Source of the DNA: a virus
DNA: 64,000 bases
Virus record (IMG/VR): IMGVR_UViG_3300032883_000188
Location: 1 to 64,000 of that record
Reading direction: 5' to 3' (one strand)
Shown: positions 4,727 to 60,606 of the stretch, one piece after another
Position numbering within the stretch: the stretch's first letter is position 1
How the letters are laid out: each line of letters begins with the position of its first letter
Program-made: the position numbers and the translations under genes
The notes under the pieces: generated by a model
What the model was told of the DNA's origin: nothing
What the model saw: only the letters and a program-made list of their open reading frames with translations
Database searches by the model: none

Positions 4727-4951
4727 ATGGATTACGATTTAAATGTACGCTTTACATATCACAAACCTTTTGGAAATCAGCCTGCCCGATATGAAGAAAT
4801 TCGTGCAAGAGCATTAGATTTCGCTGATTATCTTATAAAGCATTGCCCCGATAGCAGGGAATTTTCTTTGGCTCTTACTAAATTAGAAGAGGTTGTCTTT
4901 TGGGCAAATGCGGAAATTGCTAGACACGAAGAAAATACAAGCGAGGAATAA
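4727..4951 (+). CDS. Acb2/Tad1-like helical-hairpin protein (predicted cyclic-nucleotide sponge)
   Basis: FTYH.P...Q..RY..IR...CPDSREFSLALTKLEEVVFWAN resembles the Tad1 C-terminal SRE..CALT..EEA.MW.N; start moved to the ATG after AAGGAG. Confidence 0.7.
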   Translation: MDYDLNVRFTYHKPFGNQPARYEEIRARALDFADYLIKHCPDSREFSLALTKLEEVVFWANAEIARHEENTSEE

Positions 4952-4962
4952 AAGGATGCTTT

Positions 4963-57170: not shown

Positions 57171-57243
57171 AGCCTCCAGATGGGCATTGAACCATCATCC
57201 TCCGCTTACAGGGCGGTAGCATCTCCGTTTATGCTTTGAAGGC
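57171..57243 (-). tRNA. tRNA-Thr(TGT), atypical
   Basis: GCCTTCA/TGGAGGC acceptor stem, loop CC-TGT-AA, 8-nt T loop. Confidence 0.65.
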
Positions 57244-57582: not shown

Positions 57583-59142
57583 TTATATCGTAACAGCGCT
57601 GTACTCTTCGGAGTTCAATACTTCTAGCATTGCGTCATAGGCAGTTACACCTACGGCGTTTAAAATGCCCTTAAATACACTTGGAGACTGTCCGCTTGCA
57701 AGCTGGATACCGTGCTCATCCTTGGTGGCGTGAAACACGTTGCCGTTGCGGGAGTCAACATTCCAATAAACCATGTCTGGTAGTTCGTAACCAGCATGTG
57801 CGAATCTGGTCTTTAGCTCGGTAGTGAAGTCAACCTTGCGGCTGGTGCTACGACTATTACGGCTCATGAAACTATAACCGTTTTGAACACTATCGATTTC
57901 CATATCGGAGATAACCACAATCTTTGCTGGCATGTCTTCCTGAGAAACCTTGTTCTTTACAGCAACATCCAGAAGCAGTTCGAAAACAGCTTCCAAGTTG
58001 GTGTTGGAGTCGTCATGGTCAACGCAAGCAACCTTGTCCTTAAGAGTTGCACCCTTAAGCGTAATGAAATGAGGTGTGCTTGAGAAGGTCATGAACTGGT
58101 TGTGGAACTGCCCCTTATTGTGCTCGGCAAAGTAAATACCAAGACCAATGGAGGTGCAAACAGGACGACCCTGCATAGAACCGGAAGTGTCCGCAACAAT
58201 CAAGACATTCTCCCCGTTTTCCACATAATTAGGAAGAGCATTCCACTGTGCTTCAAGAGTCTCATCCCAAGAGGCAAGACCGTATACATCATGACGACCA
58301 CTATAATAACCGCGTCTTCCATCCGTATAGTAACCTGCGCTCAAACCAGCCTTTTCCAAGATATCGTAAGGGTAAAGAGTTGCAGAGTGAATAACTGCAT
58401 CACCCTTCTTGACAGCCTCAAGATACTTGACAAAACGCTCACCATCGTGCTTTGAGAACGCCTTACGGCTGTTCGTCATAGCCTTACTGCAAACCTTCTC
58501 GAAATCAATTTCATTCCAGTTGTTTGCAGACATTTTCTTTTCAACAACCGCATTACCCAACGCACCACGAATGTTGGAAAGGATTCTGCGGTAATCGCGC
58601 TCGGAGAAACCCAACTTGTTGGCGGTATAACGTCCCAAAGCGCGGGTCTTCAAAGAAGATGAGTTAACGGACTTGAGCCACTTTGCAAGCAAAGAAGGAC
58701 TCTTGCCCTTGGTACGGATTGTCTTAATATCCTCTACCAATTGGGTGCTAATAAAGCCCCACATCTCATTTTCTATTGGAGTATCAATGAACATATACAG
58801 GTCGTCCCAACGTCCAAAGACAGGAACAAGGTGCATGTTCTTTTTCATGATTTCTGGTACGTTAATAGCCAACCAGCGCCACATGAAACGGCTGACAGTA
58901 CGCTCACCCAAGCCACCGCGAATGTTACGTGCATAGAAACTTAACTTGGTAGCAAGCAAGCGGTCTTCCGCAAAAGCGGATGCGAACATGTCGATTACAT
59001 CGCCCGGGCGGGTGCGCAATGCACCAACCGTGCCATATAAATCGAGTAAAGAACTTCCAGTGCTGGAACGAGCAATCTGTCCGTTCTCCGTGAAAGTCCA
59101 GTTGAATTCCTCACCCAATAGAGTTGCGAAATTCTTGTTCAT
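57583..59142 (-). CDS. DUF2828-family TROVE/Ro60-like protein with vWA domain
   Basis: TENG, R.IRGG.GER, GRWDDL, SLLAKWL, LYPYDI, QW..LP.Y, MIDAS DTSGSM, ISDME.D, YWNV. Confidence 0.85.
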   Translation of the reverse strand: MNKNFATLLGEEFNWTFTENGQIARSSTGSSLLDLYGTVGALRTRPGDVIDMFASAFAEDRLLATKLSFYARNIRGGLGERTVSRFMWRWLAINVPEIMKKNMHLVPVFGRWDDLYMFIDTPIENEMWGFISTQLVEDIKTIRTKGKSPSLLAKWLKSVNSSSLKTRALGRYTANKLGFSERDYRRILSNIRGALGNAVVEKKMSANNWNEIDFEKVCSKAMTNSRKAFSKHDGERFVKYLEAVKKGDAVIHSATLYPYDILEKAGLSAGYYTDGRRGYYSGRHDVYGLASWDETLEAQWNALPNYVENGENVLIVADTSGSMQGRPVCTSIGLGIYFAEHNKGQFHNQFMTFSSTPHFITLKGATLKDKVACVDHDDSNTNLEAVFELLLDVAVKNKVSQEDMPAKIVVISDMEIDSVQNGYSFMSRNSRSTSRKVDFTTELKTRFAHAGYELPDMVYWNVDSRNGNVFHATKDEHGIQLASGQSPSVFKGILNAVGVTAYDAMLEVLNSEEYSAVTI

Positions 59143-59169
59143 TGTGAATCTCCCTTAGAATTTTAGTCT

Positions 59170-59947
59170 AGGCACATTTCGGAAAACGCTGTTAGTGCCT
59201 GAATTCTTATTTGGCTAGACACCCTTTTCTCCAATTATCATTTGGGTTTTCATTTGGGTTGCTGTAGGCGTCTAATTTTATAATTGCATCAAGACAGTTT
59301 GTTTTTATTAAAAATCGCATTGCAATTTTTCTCGGAATCGAACCAAGTTTATCCAGTTGTTGTGTCGCTGTAACTGTCTTTCTTATATAATCTTATGCAA
59401 GACCCGTAAACATTTCACATTAACAGTGTGGGTTTTTTGAGTTGCAGTGAGGGTCTTAAATTTATTATTTTATGCAAGGCACTATTAACATTTTCATCCA
59501 TTGAAAGGTTTGTTTGGGTTGCTGTGAGTGCCTTCTTACTTGCTGACCATTATCAGCCTTTCTTTCACTCTTTTCTATTTTCACGGCTCATTTTGAAGTG
59601 ACATTCAATTTTTTGGGGTCATTTTGTATTTGGGTTGCTGTATAAGCCGTAATTTATATATTCATTATACCATATTTTTCATATTTTGTCAAGACTCGGT
59701 TTTTAGCCTTTTTTCTCCGTCATGCTTGGGACGCAATATCCATAACTGTAAGTATGAATGCTGTACAAAGTCTTTAGAATATGAATTCGTGCCGGGACGC
59801 ATATATTGCGCTTTATCCCGGTGACATCCCATGGATTAGACCCCTACTTTTTTTATATCCAAGGCTCGTTTTTTTCGGGGCTAACCCTCGGGATGGCTGT
59901 GCCATCAGACGGTTTTTCAACCAAGTTTGGGTTGCTGTATGAGCCTT
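59170..59947 (-). ncRNA. array of 8 structured RNA units (closing stem + ACAGC(A/G) + variable cargo)
   Basis: Units 59170-59200, 59216-59274, 59291-59380, 59399-59457, 59476-59534, 59583-59650, 59691-59774, 59861-59947; terminal stems differ in sequence but always pair. Confidence 0.75.
59664..59692 (-). promoter_or_regulatory. sigma70-type promoter inside the RNA array
   Basis: TTGACA-17-TATAAT with TG on the - strand. Confidence 0.8.
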
Positions 59948-59951
59948 ATAG

Positions 59952-60023
59952 CTGGCGGGAAAGGATTCGAACCTCTAACCTTGACGTTCAGAGCGTCCTG
60001 CGCTACCGTTGCGCTACTCGCCA
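59952..60023 (-). tRNA. tRNA-Gln(CTG)
   Basis: Cloverleaf, loop CT-CTG-AA, GGTTCGAATCC. Confidence 0.85.
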
Positions 60024-60027
60024 ATGT

Positions 60028-60606
60028 TTAAGCACATTTTAATGTGCCATATGCCTTTTGCCTATATGCTATAATATTATCATCCCTTATAACATAAGAA
60101 AAATCGCTTTTTGAAAGTCTTTGCATTTCCCTATTTATTTCAGAAGGATTGCAATTGCGCCATTCAAAAGTAATACTATCTATTGCGTCTACATCGAACT
60201 GCTTCAATATCTCGCAATCATGACCTTCGGCATCTATTTTCAAATAATCAATCTTTTCAACTTTATGTTTTTCAAGAAGGTCTGCAACTGTTATCATTGG
60301 TAGTACTATTTCACTCAAAATGTTTCTTGCATTATCAGTATGGTATTTATGTAAAGAGCCTACACCTCTCATCCAATCTCCCAAATTCATCCTCTTTATG
60401 GTTTCTTGGGTGACATAGTAAAAAGGAAAATTTCCTCTTTCAGTTCCGATAATTGAATTTTCGTAGGATACACCTTCTACACGCTCAATCAGATTAAAAT
60501 ACTCGGGCACTGGTTCTACAACCAAGCCATTCCAGCCCTCATCACGAGCCAGATAAACAAGATTTGAAAAGTAGTTTGCACCAATTTCTACAAAGAATTT
60601 TTTCAT
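60028..60606 (-). CDS. FkbM-family methyltransferase
   Basis: FVEIGAN, VVEPV, YLKIDAEGHD. Confidence 0.85.
   Translation of the reverse strand: MKKFFVEIGANYFSNLVYLARDEGWNGLVVEPVPEYFNLIERVEGVSYENSIIGTERGNFPFYYVTQETIKRMNLGDWMRGVGSLHKYHTDNARNILSEIVLPMITVADLLEKHKVEKIDYLKIDAEGHDCEILKQFDVDAIDSITFEWRNCNPSEINREMQRLSKSDFSYVIRDDNIIAYRQKAYGTLKCA

What the first reader, a model, noticed from the sequence alone, without database searches (positions are those of the whole stretch)
59216..59947. Cargo of the array units looks like isolated tRNA parts (anticodon arms and a D/T elbow): possible decoys
Seen on the - strand: unit 59399-59457 has CACA-CUGUUAA-UGUG, a canonical Asn(GUU) 7-nt anticodon loop. Unit 59216-59274 has CCAA-AUGAUAA-UUGG, Ile(GAU)-like. 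Unit 59291-59380 has a fully paired T arm CUUGG-UUCGAUU-CCGAG preceded by D-loop-like AACUGGAUA. Weaker cases: UUGAA-UGUCAC-UUCAA (Asp GUC, 6-nt loop), GGU-UGAAAA-ACC (Phe GAA), CAUA-CUUACAG-U-UAUG (Val UAC). These anticodons do not overlap the intact tRNAs in the window (Ala x3, Trp, Gln, Thr). Inference: the units present anticodon mimics to titrate host anticodon nucleases or tRNA-modifying enzymes, or they derive from tRNAs captured into a constant scaffold.
Basis: partly seen in the sequence, partly recalled or inferred. Interest (0 to 1): 0.8.

Follow-up and report, generated by a model that had tools for sequence, protein, structure and literature searches.

The report
tRNA-arm RNAs beside phage Ro60-like gene
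A phage encodes eight small RNAs that share one constant stem-plus-ACAGCAA scaffold and carry pieces of tRNA (anticodon arms, a T arm) next to a Ro60-shaped protein gene; this looks like an uncatalogued relative of the Ro60/Y-RNA particle, and it may bait enzymes that attack or handle tRNA.

Summary
Three hold up. U5 (59399-59457) has a CUGUUAA Asn loop, U7 (59216-59274) an AUGAUAA loop, and U6 (59291-59380) a G-C-closed UUCGAUU T arm after a GG D-loop remnant. The three "weaker" cases are non-canonical and unsupported here.

The window alone is marginal (2 of 7 units, P=0.035). Hairpins with CUNNNAA loops occur in 12 of 90 and 21 of 107 non-redundant cargos, against about 0.3 in shuffles. T loops occur in 21 of 128 and 28 of 174, against about 0.3.

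Every unit has a 7-bp stem (AAGRYRC), 2 nt, ACAGCAAY, cargo, the 3' strand and a G. A covariance model gave 183 and 171 hits, all on the strand of the adjacent DUF2828/vWA gene. That protein's model matches only Ro60 structures at the top.

No unit reaches Rfam YrlA or tRNA, and my paper searches found no description. This scan has already noted the same system in at least 64 other genomes.

Descent of the cargo from tRNA is supported. The decoy role is untested. It fits a cargo spectrum led by Lys(UUU) and Asn(GUU), which are known anticodon-nuclease targets.

The parts
59861..59947 (-). U1: scaffold unit (AAGGCUC-AU-ACAGCAAC ... GAGCCUU-G) with a 63-nt cargo of three hairpins, starting 4 nt after tRNA-Gln
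   Evidence: Unit finder. R1 model 27.5 bits, E 7e-4. The MFE fold keeps the closing stem, z -4.13. The GGU-UGAAAA-ACC hairpin is non-canonical.
59690..59772 (-). U2: degenerate unit (ACAGCAUU); its 3' strand overlaps the -35 of the internal promoter
   Evidence: Seen in the sequence. It folds no better than shuffles, z -0.16. R1 does not find it. It is a doubtful member.
59664..59692 (-). Perfect sigma-70-type promoter (TTGACA-17-TATAAT with TG) that would drive U3-U8 and the protein gene
   Evidence: 12 of 12 consensus match. This is a consensus match only; transcription is not shown.
59581..59652 (-). U3: scaffold unit; the cargo holds UUGAA-UGUCAC-UUCAA (6-nt loop, Asp GUC-like)
   Evidence: Unit finder. 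R1 21.8 bits, E 0.003. Closing stem in the MFE fold, z -2.53. 7-nt CUGUCAA and CUGUCAC loops occur in relatives.
59476..59534 (-).
   Evidence: R1 40.7 bits. Similar GG loops occur in many relatives.
59399..59457 (-). U5: scaffold unit with an anticodon-arm mimic, CACA-CUGUUAA-UGUG (Asn GUU), at 59430-59416
   Evidence: R1 56 bits, E 1.7e-11. The same loop sits on other stems in L009, L141 and L185. The 4-bp stem is not in the MFE fold.
59291..59380 (-). U6: scaffold unit with a D-loop remnant AACUGGAUA (59358-59350), a T arm CUUGG-UUCGAUU-CCGAG (59347-59331) and a capped 9-bp hairpin (59330-59310)
   Evidence: The MFE fold contains the T arm and the hairpin, z -3.71. T-loop cargos: 21 of 128 against 0.29 in shuffles. 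A GG motif lies upstream of the T arm in 32 of 46.
59216..59274 (-). U7: scaffold unit with CCAA-AUGAUAA-UUGG (Ile GAU-like, A32) at 59245-59231
   Evidence: R1 50.9 bits. CUGAUAA units occur in L138, L163 and L168. A 12-nt duplication gives a rival CCAA partner.
59167..59200 (-). U8: minimal unit (AGGCAC-UA-ACAGCG-11 nt-GUGCCU-AG) in the 5' leader, 25 nt before the start codon
   Evidence: R1 16.5 bits, E 0.08. MFE hairpin, z -1.98. Cargo-less units sit just before the ribosome-binding site in L129 and L181-L184 too.
57583..59142 (-). Gene for a 519-aa DUF2828 + DUF7788 (vWA) protein with a Ro60 fold; presumed partner of the RNAs
   Evidence: Pfam and PHROG 850. Model pLDDT 82.6. The top 12 PDB matches are all Ro60/TROVE. 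The MIDAS residues D318, S320, G321, S322, T381 and D413 are invariant.
59951..60023 (-). tRNA-Gln(CUG) directly upstream of U1
   Evidence: ARAGORN. Rfam 57.4 bits.
57171..57243 (-). tRNA-Thr(UGU) downstream of the protein gene, with C33 in its anticodon loop (CCUGUAA)
   Evidence: Rfam tRNA 39.1 bits. ARAGORN does not call it.

Best explanation
The stretch is an array of eight small RNAs. At least six (U3-U8) would be co-transcribed with the adjacent Ro60-fold gene. They belong to a large uncatalogued RNA family. Each unit has a constant scaffold: a 7-bp stem AAGRYRC/GYRYCUU, 2 nt, single-stranded ACAGCAAY, and a conserved G after the 3' strand. The scaffold encloses a variable cargo that descends from tRNA. 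In this window the cargos are an Asn anticodon arm (U5), an Ile-like anticodon arm (U7), a D-loop remnant with a T arm (U6), a GG-loop hairpin (U4) and less clear cargos (U1-U3).

Most likely mechanism: the scaffold docks on the DUF2828/vWA ring as a Y-RNA stem docks on Ro60. Docking stabilises the RNA and leaves the tRNA arm exposed. The exposed arm is then bound by proteins that read anticodon arms or tRNA elbows. In a phage the most likely clients are host tRNA-targeting defence nucleases, so the particle would act as bait or decoy, possibly holding the nuclease on the vWA/MIDAS side.

Shown: the family, its architecture, its strand and position linkage to the gene, the tRNA-like nature of the cargos, and the Ro60 fold of the protein.

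Inferred: RNA-protein binding, expression as discrete RNAs, and the clients. I put the decoy sub-claim alone at about 0.3.
For: The motif and closed units are strongly biased to the gene strand: 347 motifs and 218 units against 45 and 13, and 294 and 224 against 80 and 22 in a second set. The units cluster 0-750 nt upstream or 0-250 nt downstream of the gene.

Model R1 gave 183 hits in viral loci and 171 in bacterial-genome loci, all on the gene strand. In this 81.8-kb record the six best hits (E 2e-12 to 0.08) all lie in 59167-59947 on the gene strand, against two weak ones (E about 0.8) elsewhere.

RNAalifold predicted the 7-bp closing stem unaided, with compensatory changes in 6 of 7 pairs.

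CUNNNAA loops occur in 12 of 90 cargos (shuffle mean 0.31, max 3) and in 21 of 107 (mean 0.34, max 2). T loops occur in 21 of 128 and 28 of 174, against about 0.3.

The loops equal natural ones: CUUUUAA, CUGUUAA, CUGAUAA, CUGCUAA, CUGCAAA.

The cargo spectrum differs from the loci's own tRNA genes (Fisher 8e-12; on the non-redundant set 4e-6).

Protein: Ro60 fold and an intact MIDAS site.

Precedents: Ro60 binds Y RNAs encoded nearby on the same strand, and YrlA mimics tRNA (PMC4201824). A phage Ro60 binds two upstream Y-like RNAs (PMC12135203). PARIS AriB cleaves tRNA-Lys(UUU), Thr(UGU) and Asn(GUU) (PMC12409363).
Against: There is no expression, end-mapping or binding data for any member.

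In this window the two anticodon stems are only 4 bp and are absent from the MFE folds. U7 has A32. Window-only enrichment is marginal (P=0.035).

The second sample shows a broader spectrum (Tyr, Asp, Phe, Ser, Arg, Met, Leu), so the cargos are not confined to known nuclease targets. A/U-rich loops with A37 are also what AT-rich phages use most.

Phage tRNA-Lys genes in these loci carry the same canonical loop as the cargos, so there is no contrast between a sensitive bait and a resistant tRNA.

My unit finder and the choice of sequences for alignment A2 required the stems, so part of the pairing statistics holds by construction.
Confidence: 0.55

Rival explanations
1. The particle is the same, but the cargo tethers the Ro-like ring to tRNA repair, processing or modification enzymes (RtcB, RNase P/Z, TruB, t6A or queuosine enzymes, class II synthetases) or to PNPase. 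This is what is proposed for YrlA and RYPER. On this reading the system serves tRNA or RNA quality control during infection and does not act as a decoy.
For: YrlA is a substrate of tRNA-modifying enzymes, and Ro/Y RNA tethers PNPase (PMC4201824, PMC12135203). The gene sits in tRNA gene clusters in Bacillus phage Tsamsa, Felixounavirus and Listeria phages. RtcB lies 1.3 kb downstream in Listeria phage LP-083-2, and an ORF I read by eye as RtcB-like lies upstream in L011. U6-type cargos keep the D/T elbow that such enzymes read.
Against: This record has no RtcB or Rnl-type ligase, although it is only 57% complete. Isolated anticodon arms lack the elbow and acceptor end that most processing enzymes need. 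The skew to Lys and Asn is not predicted by a general quality-control role.
Confidence: 0.25
2. The cargos are decaying remains of tRNA genes. Only the scaffold is functional, for example as a protein-binding or processing signal, and the tRNA-like arms have no role of their own.
For: There is a continuum from whole tRNA bodies to single arms. Several window cargos (U1-U3) have no clear tRNA feature. Cargo-less minimal units exist.
Against: Exact 7-nt loops are kept while their stems change on both sides, between loci whose proteins are only 37-45% identical. The Asn-arm then T-arm order is kept between the window and L009. The enrichment over shuffles is 40- to 60-fold.
Confidence: 0.08
3. 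The array acts in cis as a structured leader and processing platform. It would control translation or stability of the DUF2828 mRNA and of neighbouring tRNAs, through autoregulation by the protein binding its own leader.
For: U3-U8 and the gene share one promoter-like site. The minimal unit U8 lies 25 nt before the start codon, and similar cargo-less units precede the ribosome-binding site in L129 and L181-L184.
Against: Units also lie downstream of the gene and between tRNA genes. This reading does not explain cargos with exact anticodon loops. It can hold together with the trans-acting model.
Confidence: 0.07
4. The resemblance of the cargos to tRNA parts is due to chance in AT-rich hairpins.
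For: Window-only statistics are weak (P=0.035). Three of the six quoted cases are non-canonical. The 4-bp stems are not in the MFE folds.
Against: None of 1000 shuffles in the first sample or 500 in the second reached the observed counts. T loops closed by a G-C pair occur in 49 cargos. There are orthologous units in relatives.
Confidence: 0.03

Closest known systems
Bacterial and phage Ro60 (Rsr) with YrlA-type Y RNAs (Rfam RF02553; Chen et al. 2014, PMC4201824)
   Same: Both have a ring protein with the TROVE + vWA/MIDAS fold. Small RNAs are encoded within a few kb on the same strand. The RNA ends pair into a stem. A second module mimics tRNA with a T arm and D-loop features.
   Different: The protein is DUF2828/DUF7788, not Pfam TROVE, and is related only at fold level. 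The RNAs do not reach the YrlA model. The conserved element is a 7-bp stem plus single-stranded ACAGCAAY, not the bulged Ro-binding helix. The arrays hold 3-14 units. Many cargos are bare anticodon arms with real anticodon loops, which YrlA lacks.
Thermus phage phiLo Ro60 with Yrl1/Yrl2 (PMC12135203; PDB 9KOP, 9L5Y)
   Same: It is a phage-encoded Ro60 with Y-like RNAs just upstream of the gene. It is the best structural match of the model (TM 0.53-0.58).
   Different: The phiLo protein is a canonical TROVE protein. Its RNAs are recognised through a CGAA motif in a stem bulge and carry no described tRNA arms. Only two RNAs were reported.
Phage tRNAs that neutralise tRNA-cleaving defences (T5 tRNA-Lys, Thr and Asn against PARIS AriB; PMC11464382, PMC12409363)
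   Same: These are phage RNA genes in tRNA clusters, and their anticodons (Lys UUU, Asn GUU, Thr UGU) overlap the leading cargos.
   Different: Those are complete, functional tRNAs that replace cleaved host tRNAs. The units here score as no tRNA. They lack CCA and an acceptor end, and most lack a T arm.

Membership tests
Ro60 / TROVE-vWA proteins (for the neighbouring gene) | Ring of HEAT-like repeats followed by a vWA domain (overall fold) | tested here: met
   Model pLDDT 82.6, pTM 0.80. The top 12 Foldseek PDB hits are all Ro60/TROVE, full length, probability 1.0, TM about 0.5.
Ro60 / TROVE-vWA proteins (for the neighbouring gene) | MIDAS motif DxSxS plus T and D in the vWA domain | tested here: met
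   D318, S320, G321, S322, T381 and D413 are invariant in 36 sequences.
Ro60 / TROVE-vWA proteins (for the neighbouring gene) | Sequence match to TROVE/Ro60 proteins (Pfam family, solved structures) | tested here: not met
   Pfam gives DUF2828, DUF7788 and a weak VWA_2 only. A family profile against the PDB Ro60 chains reaches E 0.37.
Ro60 / TROVE-vWA proteins (for the neighbouring gene) | Binds Y RNA stems and misfolded RNA ends | not testable with these tools
   This needs EMSA, RIP or a structure.
Y RNA / YrlA (Rfam RF02553) | Score at or above the family's gathering threshold | tested here: not met
   There is no YrlA hit in the array even at E up to 10, none in 20 related loci at the gathering score, and none at E up to 1 in four cultured-phage loci.
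Y RNA / YrlA (Rfam RF02553) | Encoded near the Ro60 gene and on the same strand | tested here: met
   every significant hit is on the gene strand and next to the gene.
Y RNA / YrlA (Rfam RF02553) | 5' and 3' ends pair into the protein-binding stem, with the conserved bulged helix (CGAA-type motif) | tested here: inconclusive
   A terminal 7-bp stem is present and covaries. The conserved element is ACAGCAAY after the stem, not the known helix. Binding is untested.
Y RNA / YrlA (Rfam RF02553) | tRNA-like module with T arm and D-loop features | tested here: met
   This is met in U6 and in the T-arm class in relatives. U4, U5 and U7 carry single hairpins only.
tRNA (RF00005) | Cloverleaf scoring at or above 29 bits | tested here: not met
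   There is no tRNA hit inside 59150-59950 at E up to 10.
tRNA (RF00005) | 7-nt anticodon loop with U33 and purine 37 on a 5-bp stem | tested here: inconclusive
   The U5 loop is canonical and the U7 loop has A32. Both stems are 4 bp. Most relatives have 5 bp.
tRNA (RF00005) | Acceptor end: 7-bp stem, discriminator, CCA (encoded or added) | tested here: not met
   There is a 7-bp stem and a conserved G at +1 (261 of 292), but U or A follows and no CCA is encoded. Only U7 happens to read GCCA.

The most novel reading that the evidence does not exclude
These phages use an RNA-based counter-defence. A Ro60-like ring displays interchangeable single tRNA arms, above all the anticodon arms of Lys(UUU), Asn(GUU) and other A/U-rich tRNAs. 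The arms act as bait that captures or saturates host anticodon nucleases (PrrC/RloC, PARIS AriB, colicin-E5-like enzymes), with the vWA/MIDAS face holding the enzyme. The cargo repertoire of each phage would then record which tRNA-cleaving defences its hosts carry.
Probability: 0.28. Interest if true: 0.9.

Novelty: new variant of a known kind. Interest (0 to 1): 0.75.

Why it matters
Ro60 and Y RNAs have been studied for decades, yet the purpose of the tRNA-like module of bacterial Y RNAs is still open.

Here a second, fold-level Ro60 family is widespread in phages of Clostridia, Bacillus, Listeria, Mycobacterium and enterobacteria. Its partner RNAs reduce the mimicry to its parts: one scaffold carrying one tRNA arm. 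That makes the question testable arm by arm.

tRNA cleavage has recently emerged as a major antiphage strategy. An RNA decoy or tether that displays exactly the loops those nucleases cut would be a new class of counter-measure.

The family also explains unannotated gaps next to 'RNA-binding protein' genes in cultured phages (Tsamsa, the Listeria phage LP-083-2 (genus Pecentumvirus) and Mycobacterium phage Itos (Faithunavirus)). It also shows that some tRNA hits of 103-135 nt carry the same module as an insert.

Tried and rejected
- Exact 14-mer scan of viral contigs: only single, apparently chance matches. It was useless for finding relatives.
A1 was used instead.
- Sequencing runs: no RNA holder listed and only small DNA shares. 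No reads were laid.
- Rfam: no YrlA, Y_RNA or tRNA hit on any window unit.
- RtcB and Rnl-type ligase families: absent from this 57%-complete record.
- Thermodynamic folding does not recover the 4-bp anticodon stems of U5 and U7. Their support is comparative only.
- Idea that cargos are limited to ANN-decoding (t6A) tRNAs or to Lys/Asn/Ile: dropped after the second sample showed Tyr, Asp, Phe, Ser(UGA), Cys, Leu and Met loops.
- Idea that phage tRNA-Lys genes carry escape loops while the cargos keep the sensitive loop: not supported, because both are CUUUUAA.
- Reading the units as working minimal tRNAs: rejected. They have no CCA, most have no T arm, they score as no tRNA, and U or A follows the conserved G.
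- The three weaker window cases (Asp, Phe, Val): not accepted as anticodon mimics on present evidence.
- Complex prediction was not used, because it takes no RNA.

Full report
WHAT IS THERE

On the - strand, tRNA-Gln (59951-60023) is followed by eight hairpin-closed units and then by a 519-aa gene (57583-59142). The sequence and a unit finder place the units as follows:
- U1 59947-59861
- U2 about 59772-59690
- U3 59652-59581
- U4 59534-59476
- U5 59457-59399
- U6 59380-59291
- U7 59274-59216
- U8, a minimal unit, 59200-59167

The 13-mer ACAGCAACCCAAA occurs four times without mismatch and twice in degenerate form, only here and only on this strand.

A perfect TTGACA-17-TGNTATAAT promoter-like site (59692-59664) lies between U2 and U3. 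U3-U8 and the gene would therefore form one transcript. The window is part of an 81.8-kb phage record with a terminase and tail genes.

THE OBSERVATION

All quoted strings are present. Details of each case:
- U5 holds CACA-CUGUUAA-UGUG (59430-59416).
- U7 holds CCAA-AUGAUAA-UUGG (59245-59231).
- U6 holds AACUGGAUA (59358-59350), then CUUGG-UUCGAUU-CCGAG (59347-59331), then a capped 9-bp hairpin.
- The Asp-like case has a 6-nt loop.
- The Phe-like case has a 3-bp stem and a 6-nt loop.
- The Val-like case lies in U2, which folds no better than shuffles.

Within the window, 2 of 7 cargos have a hairpin of 4 bp or more with an NUNNNRN 7-nt loop, against 0.32 in dinucleotide shuffles (P=0.035). Minimum-free-energy folds keep the closing stems in seven of eight units and the U6 T arm. 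They do not keep the 4-bp anticodon stems of U5 and U7. The window alone is only suggestive.

RELATIVES DECIDE IT

The neighbouring protein has homologues in 709 phage records. I fetched 86 related loci from viral collections and 80 from bacterial genome assemblies, mostly Clostridia MAGs.

The motif ACAGCRAY with a closing stem is strongly biased to the gene strand. The counts are 347 motifs and 218 units against 45 and 13, then 294 and 224 against 80 and 22. The units pile up just upstream, and less often just downstream, of the gene.

The architecture is constant (n=292): a 7-bp stem AAGRYRC, 2 nt, ACAGCAA(Y/A), cargo, GYRYCUU, then G in 89% of units.

RNAalifold predicted the 7-bp stem unaided, with compensatory changes in 6 of 7 pairs. 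Counting on alignment A2 gave 93% paired cells against 36-46% for slid partners. The A2 sequences were chosen for having the inner hairpin, so its 100% pairing holds by construction.

A covariance model built from 15 units found 183 and 171 hits at E up to 0.01, all on the gene strand. In this genome the six best hits all lie in 59167-59947, against two weak ones (E about 0.8) elsewhere. It also hits unannotated gaps beside the gene in Bacillus phage Tsamsa, Listeria phage LP-083-2 and Mycobacterium phage Itos. Weaker units lie between tRNA genes of the E. coli Felixounavirus AYO145A.

In 90 non-redundant short cargos:
- A hairpin of 4 bp or more with a CUNNNAA loop occurs in 12 (shuffle mean 0.31, max 3 of 1000).
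- A YUNNNRN loop occurs in 22 (shuffle mean 4.9, max 12).

In an independent set, made non-redundant against the first, the figures are 21 of 107 (mean 0.34, max 2) and 30 of 107 (mean 3.6, max 11).

UUCRANN T loops on stems of 4 bp or more occur in 21 of 128 and 28 of 174 cargos, against about 0.3. In 32 of 46 of these a WGG(N1-2)A D-loop-like motif lies upstream, against 14.2 expected and a maximum of 23.

The loops are letter-for-letter natural anticodon loops: CUUUUAA (Lys), CUGUUAA (Asn), CUGAUAA (Ile), CUGCUAA and CUUGAAA (Ser), CUGCAAA (Cys). The second set adds Tyr, Asp, Phe, Arg, Met and Leu.

U5 has an evident orthologue in the closest locus, L009. It has the same loop, a stem changed on both sides, and a T-arm unit following it before the gene, as U6 follows U5 here.

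DESCENT FROM tRNA

Relatives show every intermediate form:
- whole tRNA bodies (D arm, anticodon arm, T arm) between the scaffold strands;
- circularly permuted tRNA-like cargo with a capped acceptor stem, for example the Asn-like unit of phage Itos;
- about 21 Rfam tRNA hits of 103-135 nt in which a capped scaffold hairpin plus ACAGCAAY is inserted between the D arm and the anticodon arm;
- single arms;
- cargo-less units in the mRNA leader.

THE PARTNER PROTEIN

Pfam gives DUF2828 + DUF7788, and PHROG 850 reads 'RNA-binding protein'. A model built on 36 sequences (pLDDT 82.6) has only Ro60/TROVE structures as its top 12 PDB matches. These are the Thermus phage phiLo Ro60, Xenopus and human Ro60, and Deinococcus Rsr. 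The MIDAS residues are invariant. Sequence profiles do not reach these structures, so the relation is at fold level only.

COMPARISON WITH WHAT IS KNOWN

Ro60 proteins bind Y RNAs encoded nearby on the same strand, and bacterial YrlA carries a tRNA-like domain (PMC4201824). A phage Ro60 binds two upstream Y-like RNAs through a CGAA motif and engages host PNPase (PMC12135203).

The present RNAs do not reach the YrlA model. They use a different conserved element, come in arrays, and often carry only an anticodon arm. 'DUF2828' occurs in no phage-related paper in the library, and my other searches found no description.

This scan has already noted the same system in at least 64 other genomes. Earlier follow-ups reached the same reading. 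I looked those notes up after my own analysis.

FUNCTION

The cargo spectrum is not a sample of the phages' own tRNA genes. Lys(UUU) makes up 15 of 30 canonical cargos against 8 of 265 tRNA genes in the same loci (Fisher 8e-12; 6 of 12 on the non-redundant set, 4e-6). Met, Leu, Gly, Pro, Gln, Glu, Tyr and Arg make up about 60% of the genes but none of those 30 cargos.

Lys(UUU), Asn(GUU) and Thr(UGU) are the targets of PARIS AriB (PMC12409363), and Lys is the target of PrrC (PMC1484252). This fits a bait or decoy role, but it does not show it.

Several points count against the decoy reading:
- The second sample is broader.
- A/U-rich loops are also those that AT-rich phages use most.
- Phage tRNA-Lys genes share the canonical loop.
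- A tether role for repair or modification enzymes is equally open. RtcB lies near the gene in some phages, though it is absent from this record.

VERDICT

The 'tRNA parts on a constant scaffold' reading is right. The decoy mechanism is the most attractive reading but is unproven.

Noticed in passing
L136:2112-2228, L176:1930-2054, L154:1842-1969, L197:1961-2086, L010:1570-1690, L009:1494-1620 and about 15 more: Rfam calls full-length tRNAs of 103-135 nt. They carry an insert of about 50 nt between the D arm and the anticodon arm, made of a capped hairpin plus ACAGCAAY. This is the same scaffold in circularly permuted topology. ARAGORN misses them. None is in this window.
   Followed up: partly
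window 59167-59200 (-); also L129:2432-2464, L181:2411-2441, L182-L184 about 2407-2439: A cargo-less minimal unit (stem + ACAGC.. + 8-11 nt) sits directly before the ribosome-binding site of the DUF2828 gene in several lineages. It is a candidate operator for autoregulation by the protein.
   Followed up: partly
window 57171-57243 (-): The phage's tRNA-Thr(UGU) has C33 in place of the near-universal U33 (loop CCUGUAA; Rfam 39.1 bits, missed by ARAGORN). Thr(UGU) is a published PARIS AriB target, so this could be an escape variant.
   Followed up: no
window 61233-61085 (-), hairpin at 61163-61147: Two further perfect TTGACA-17-TGNTATAAT promoter-like sites lie upstream of the tRNA-Ala genes. 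The first would drive a short RNA of about 100 nt with a T-arm-like hairpin, GACGG-UUAAAGU-CCGUC. The same UUAAAGU loop occurs in a cargo of L011.
   Followed up: no
L210:1462-2013 (Listeria phage LP-083-2): A ROOL RNA match (87.4 bits, below the gathering score of 99.1) lies about 1 kb upstream of the DUF2828 gene, among tRNA genes. An RtcB gene lies 1.3 kb downstream of it.
   Followed up: no
window 59476-59534 (U4); L211:4463-4514; L208 about 4900-4960; L210:2656-2713: A recurrent cargo class has GG in the hairpin loop (AUGGA, UUGGAUA, AAUGGGUG). The identical 7-nt loop UGCGGAU occurs in Mycobacterium phage Itos and in E. coli phage AYO145A. It may mimic a D arm.
   Followed up: partly
window 59238-59260 (-): A 12-nt tandem duplication (ACCCAAAUGA..) inside U7 creates two alternative CCAA partners for UUGG. 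The MFE fold picks the one that does not give the 7-nt loop.
   Followed up: partly
window 60028-60606 (-): An FkbM-family methyltransferase gene is wedged between tRNA-Gln and tRNA-Trp inside the RNA gene cluster. Its substrate is unknown.
   Followed up: no
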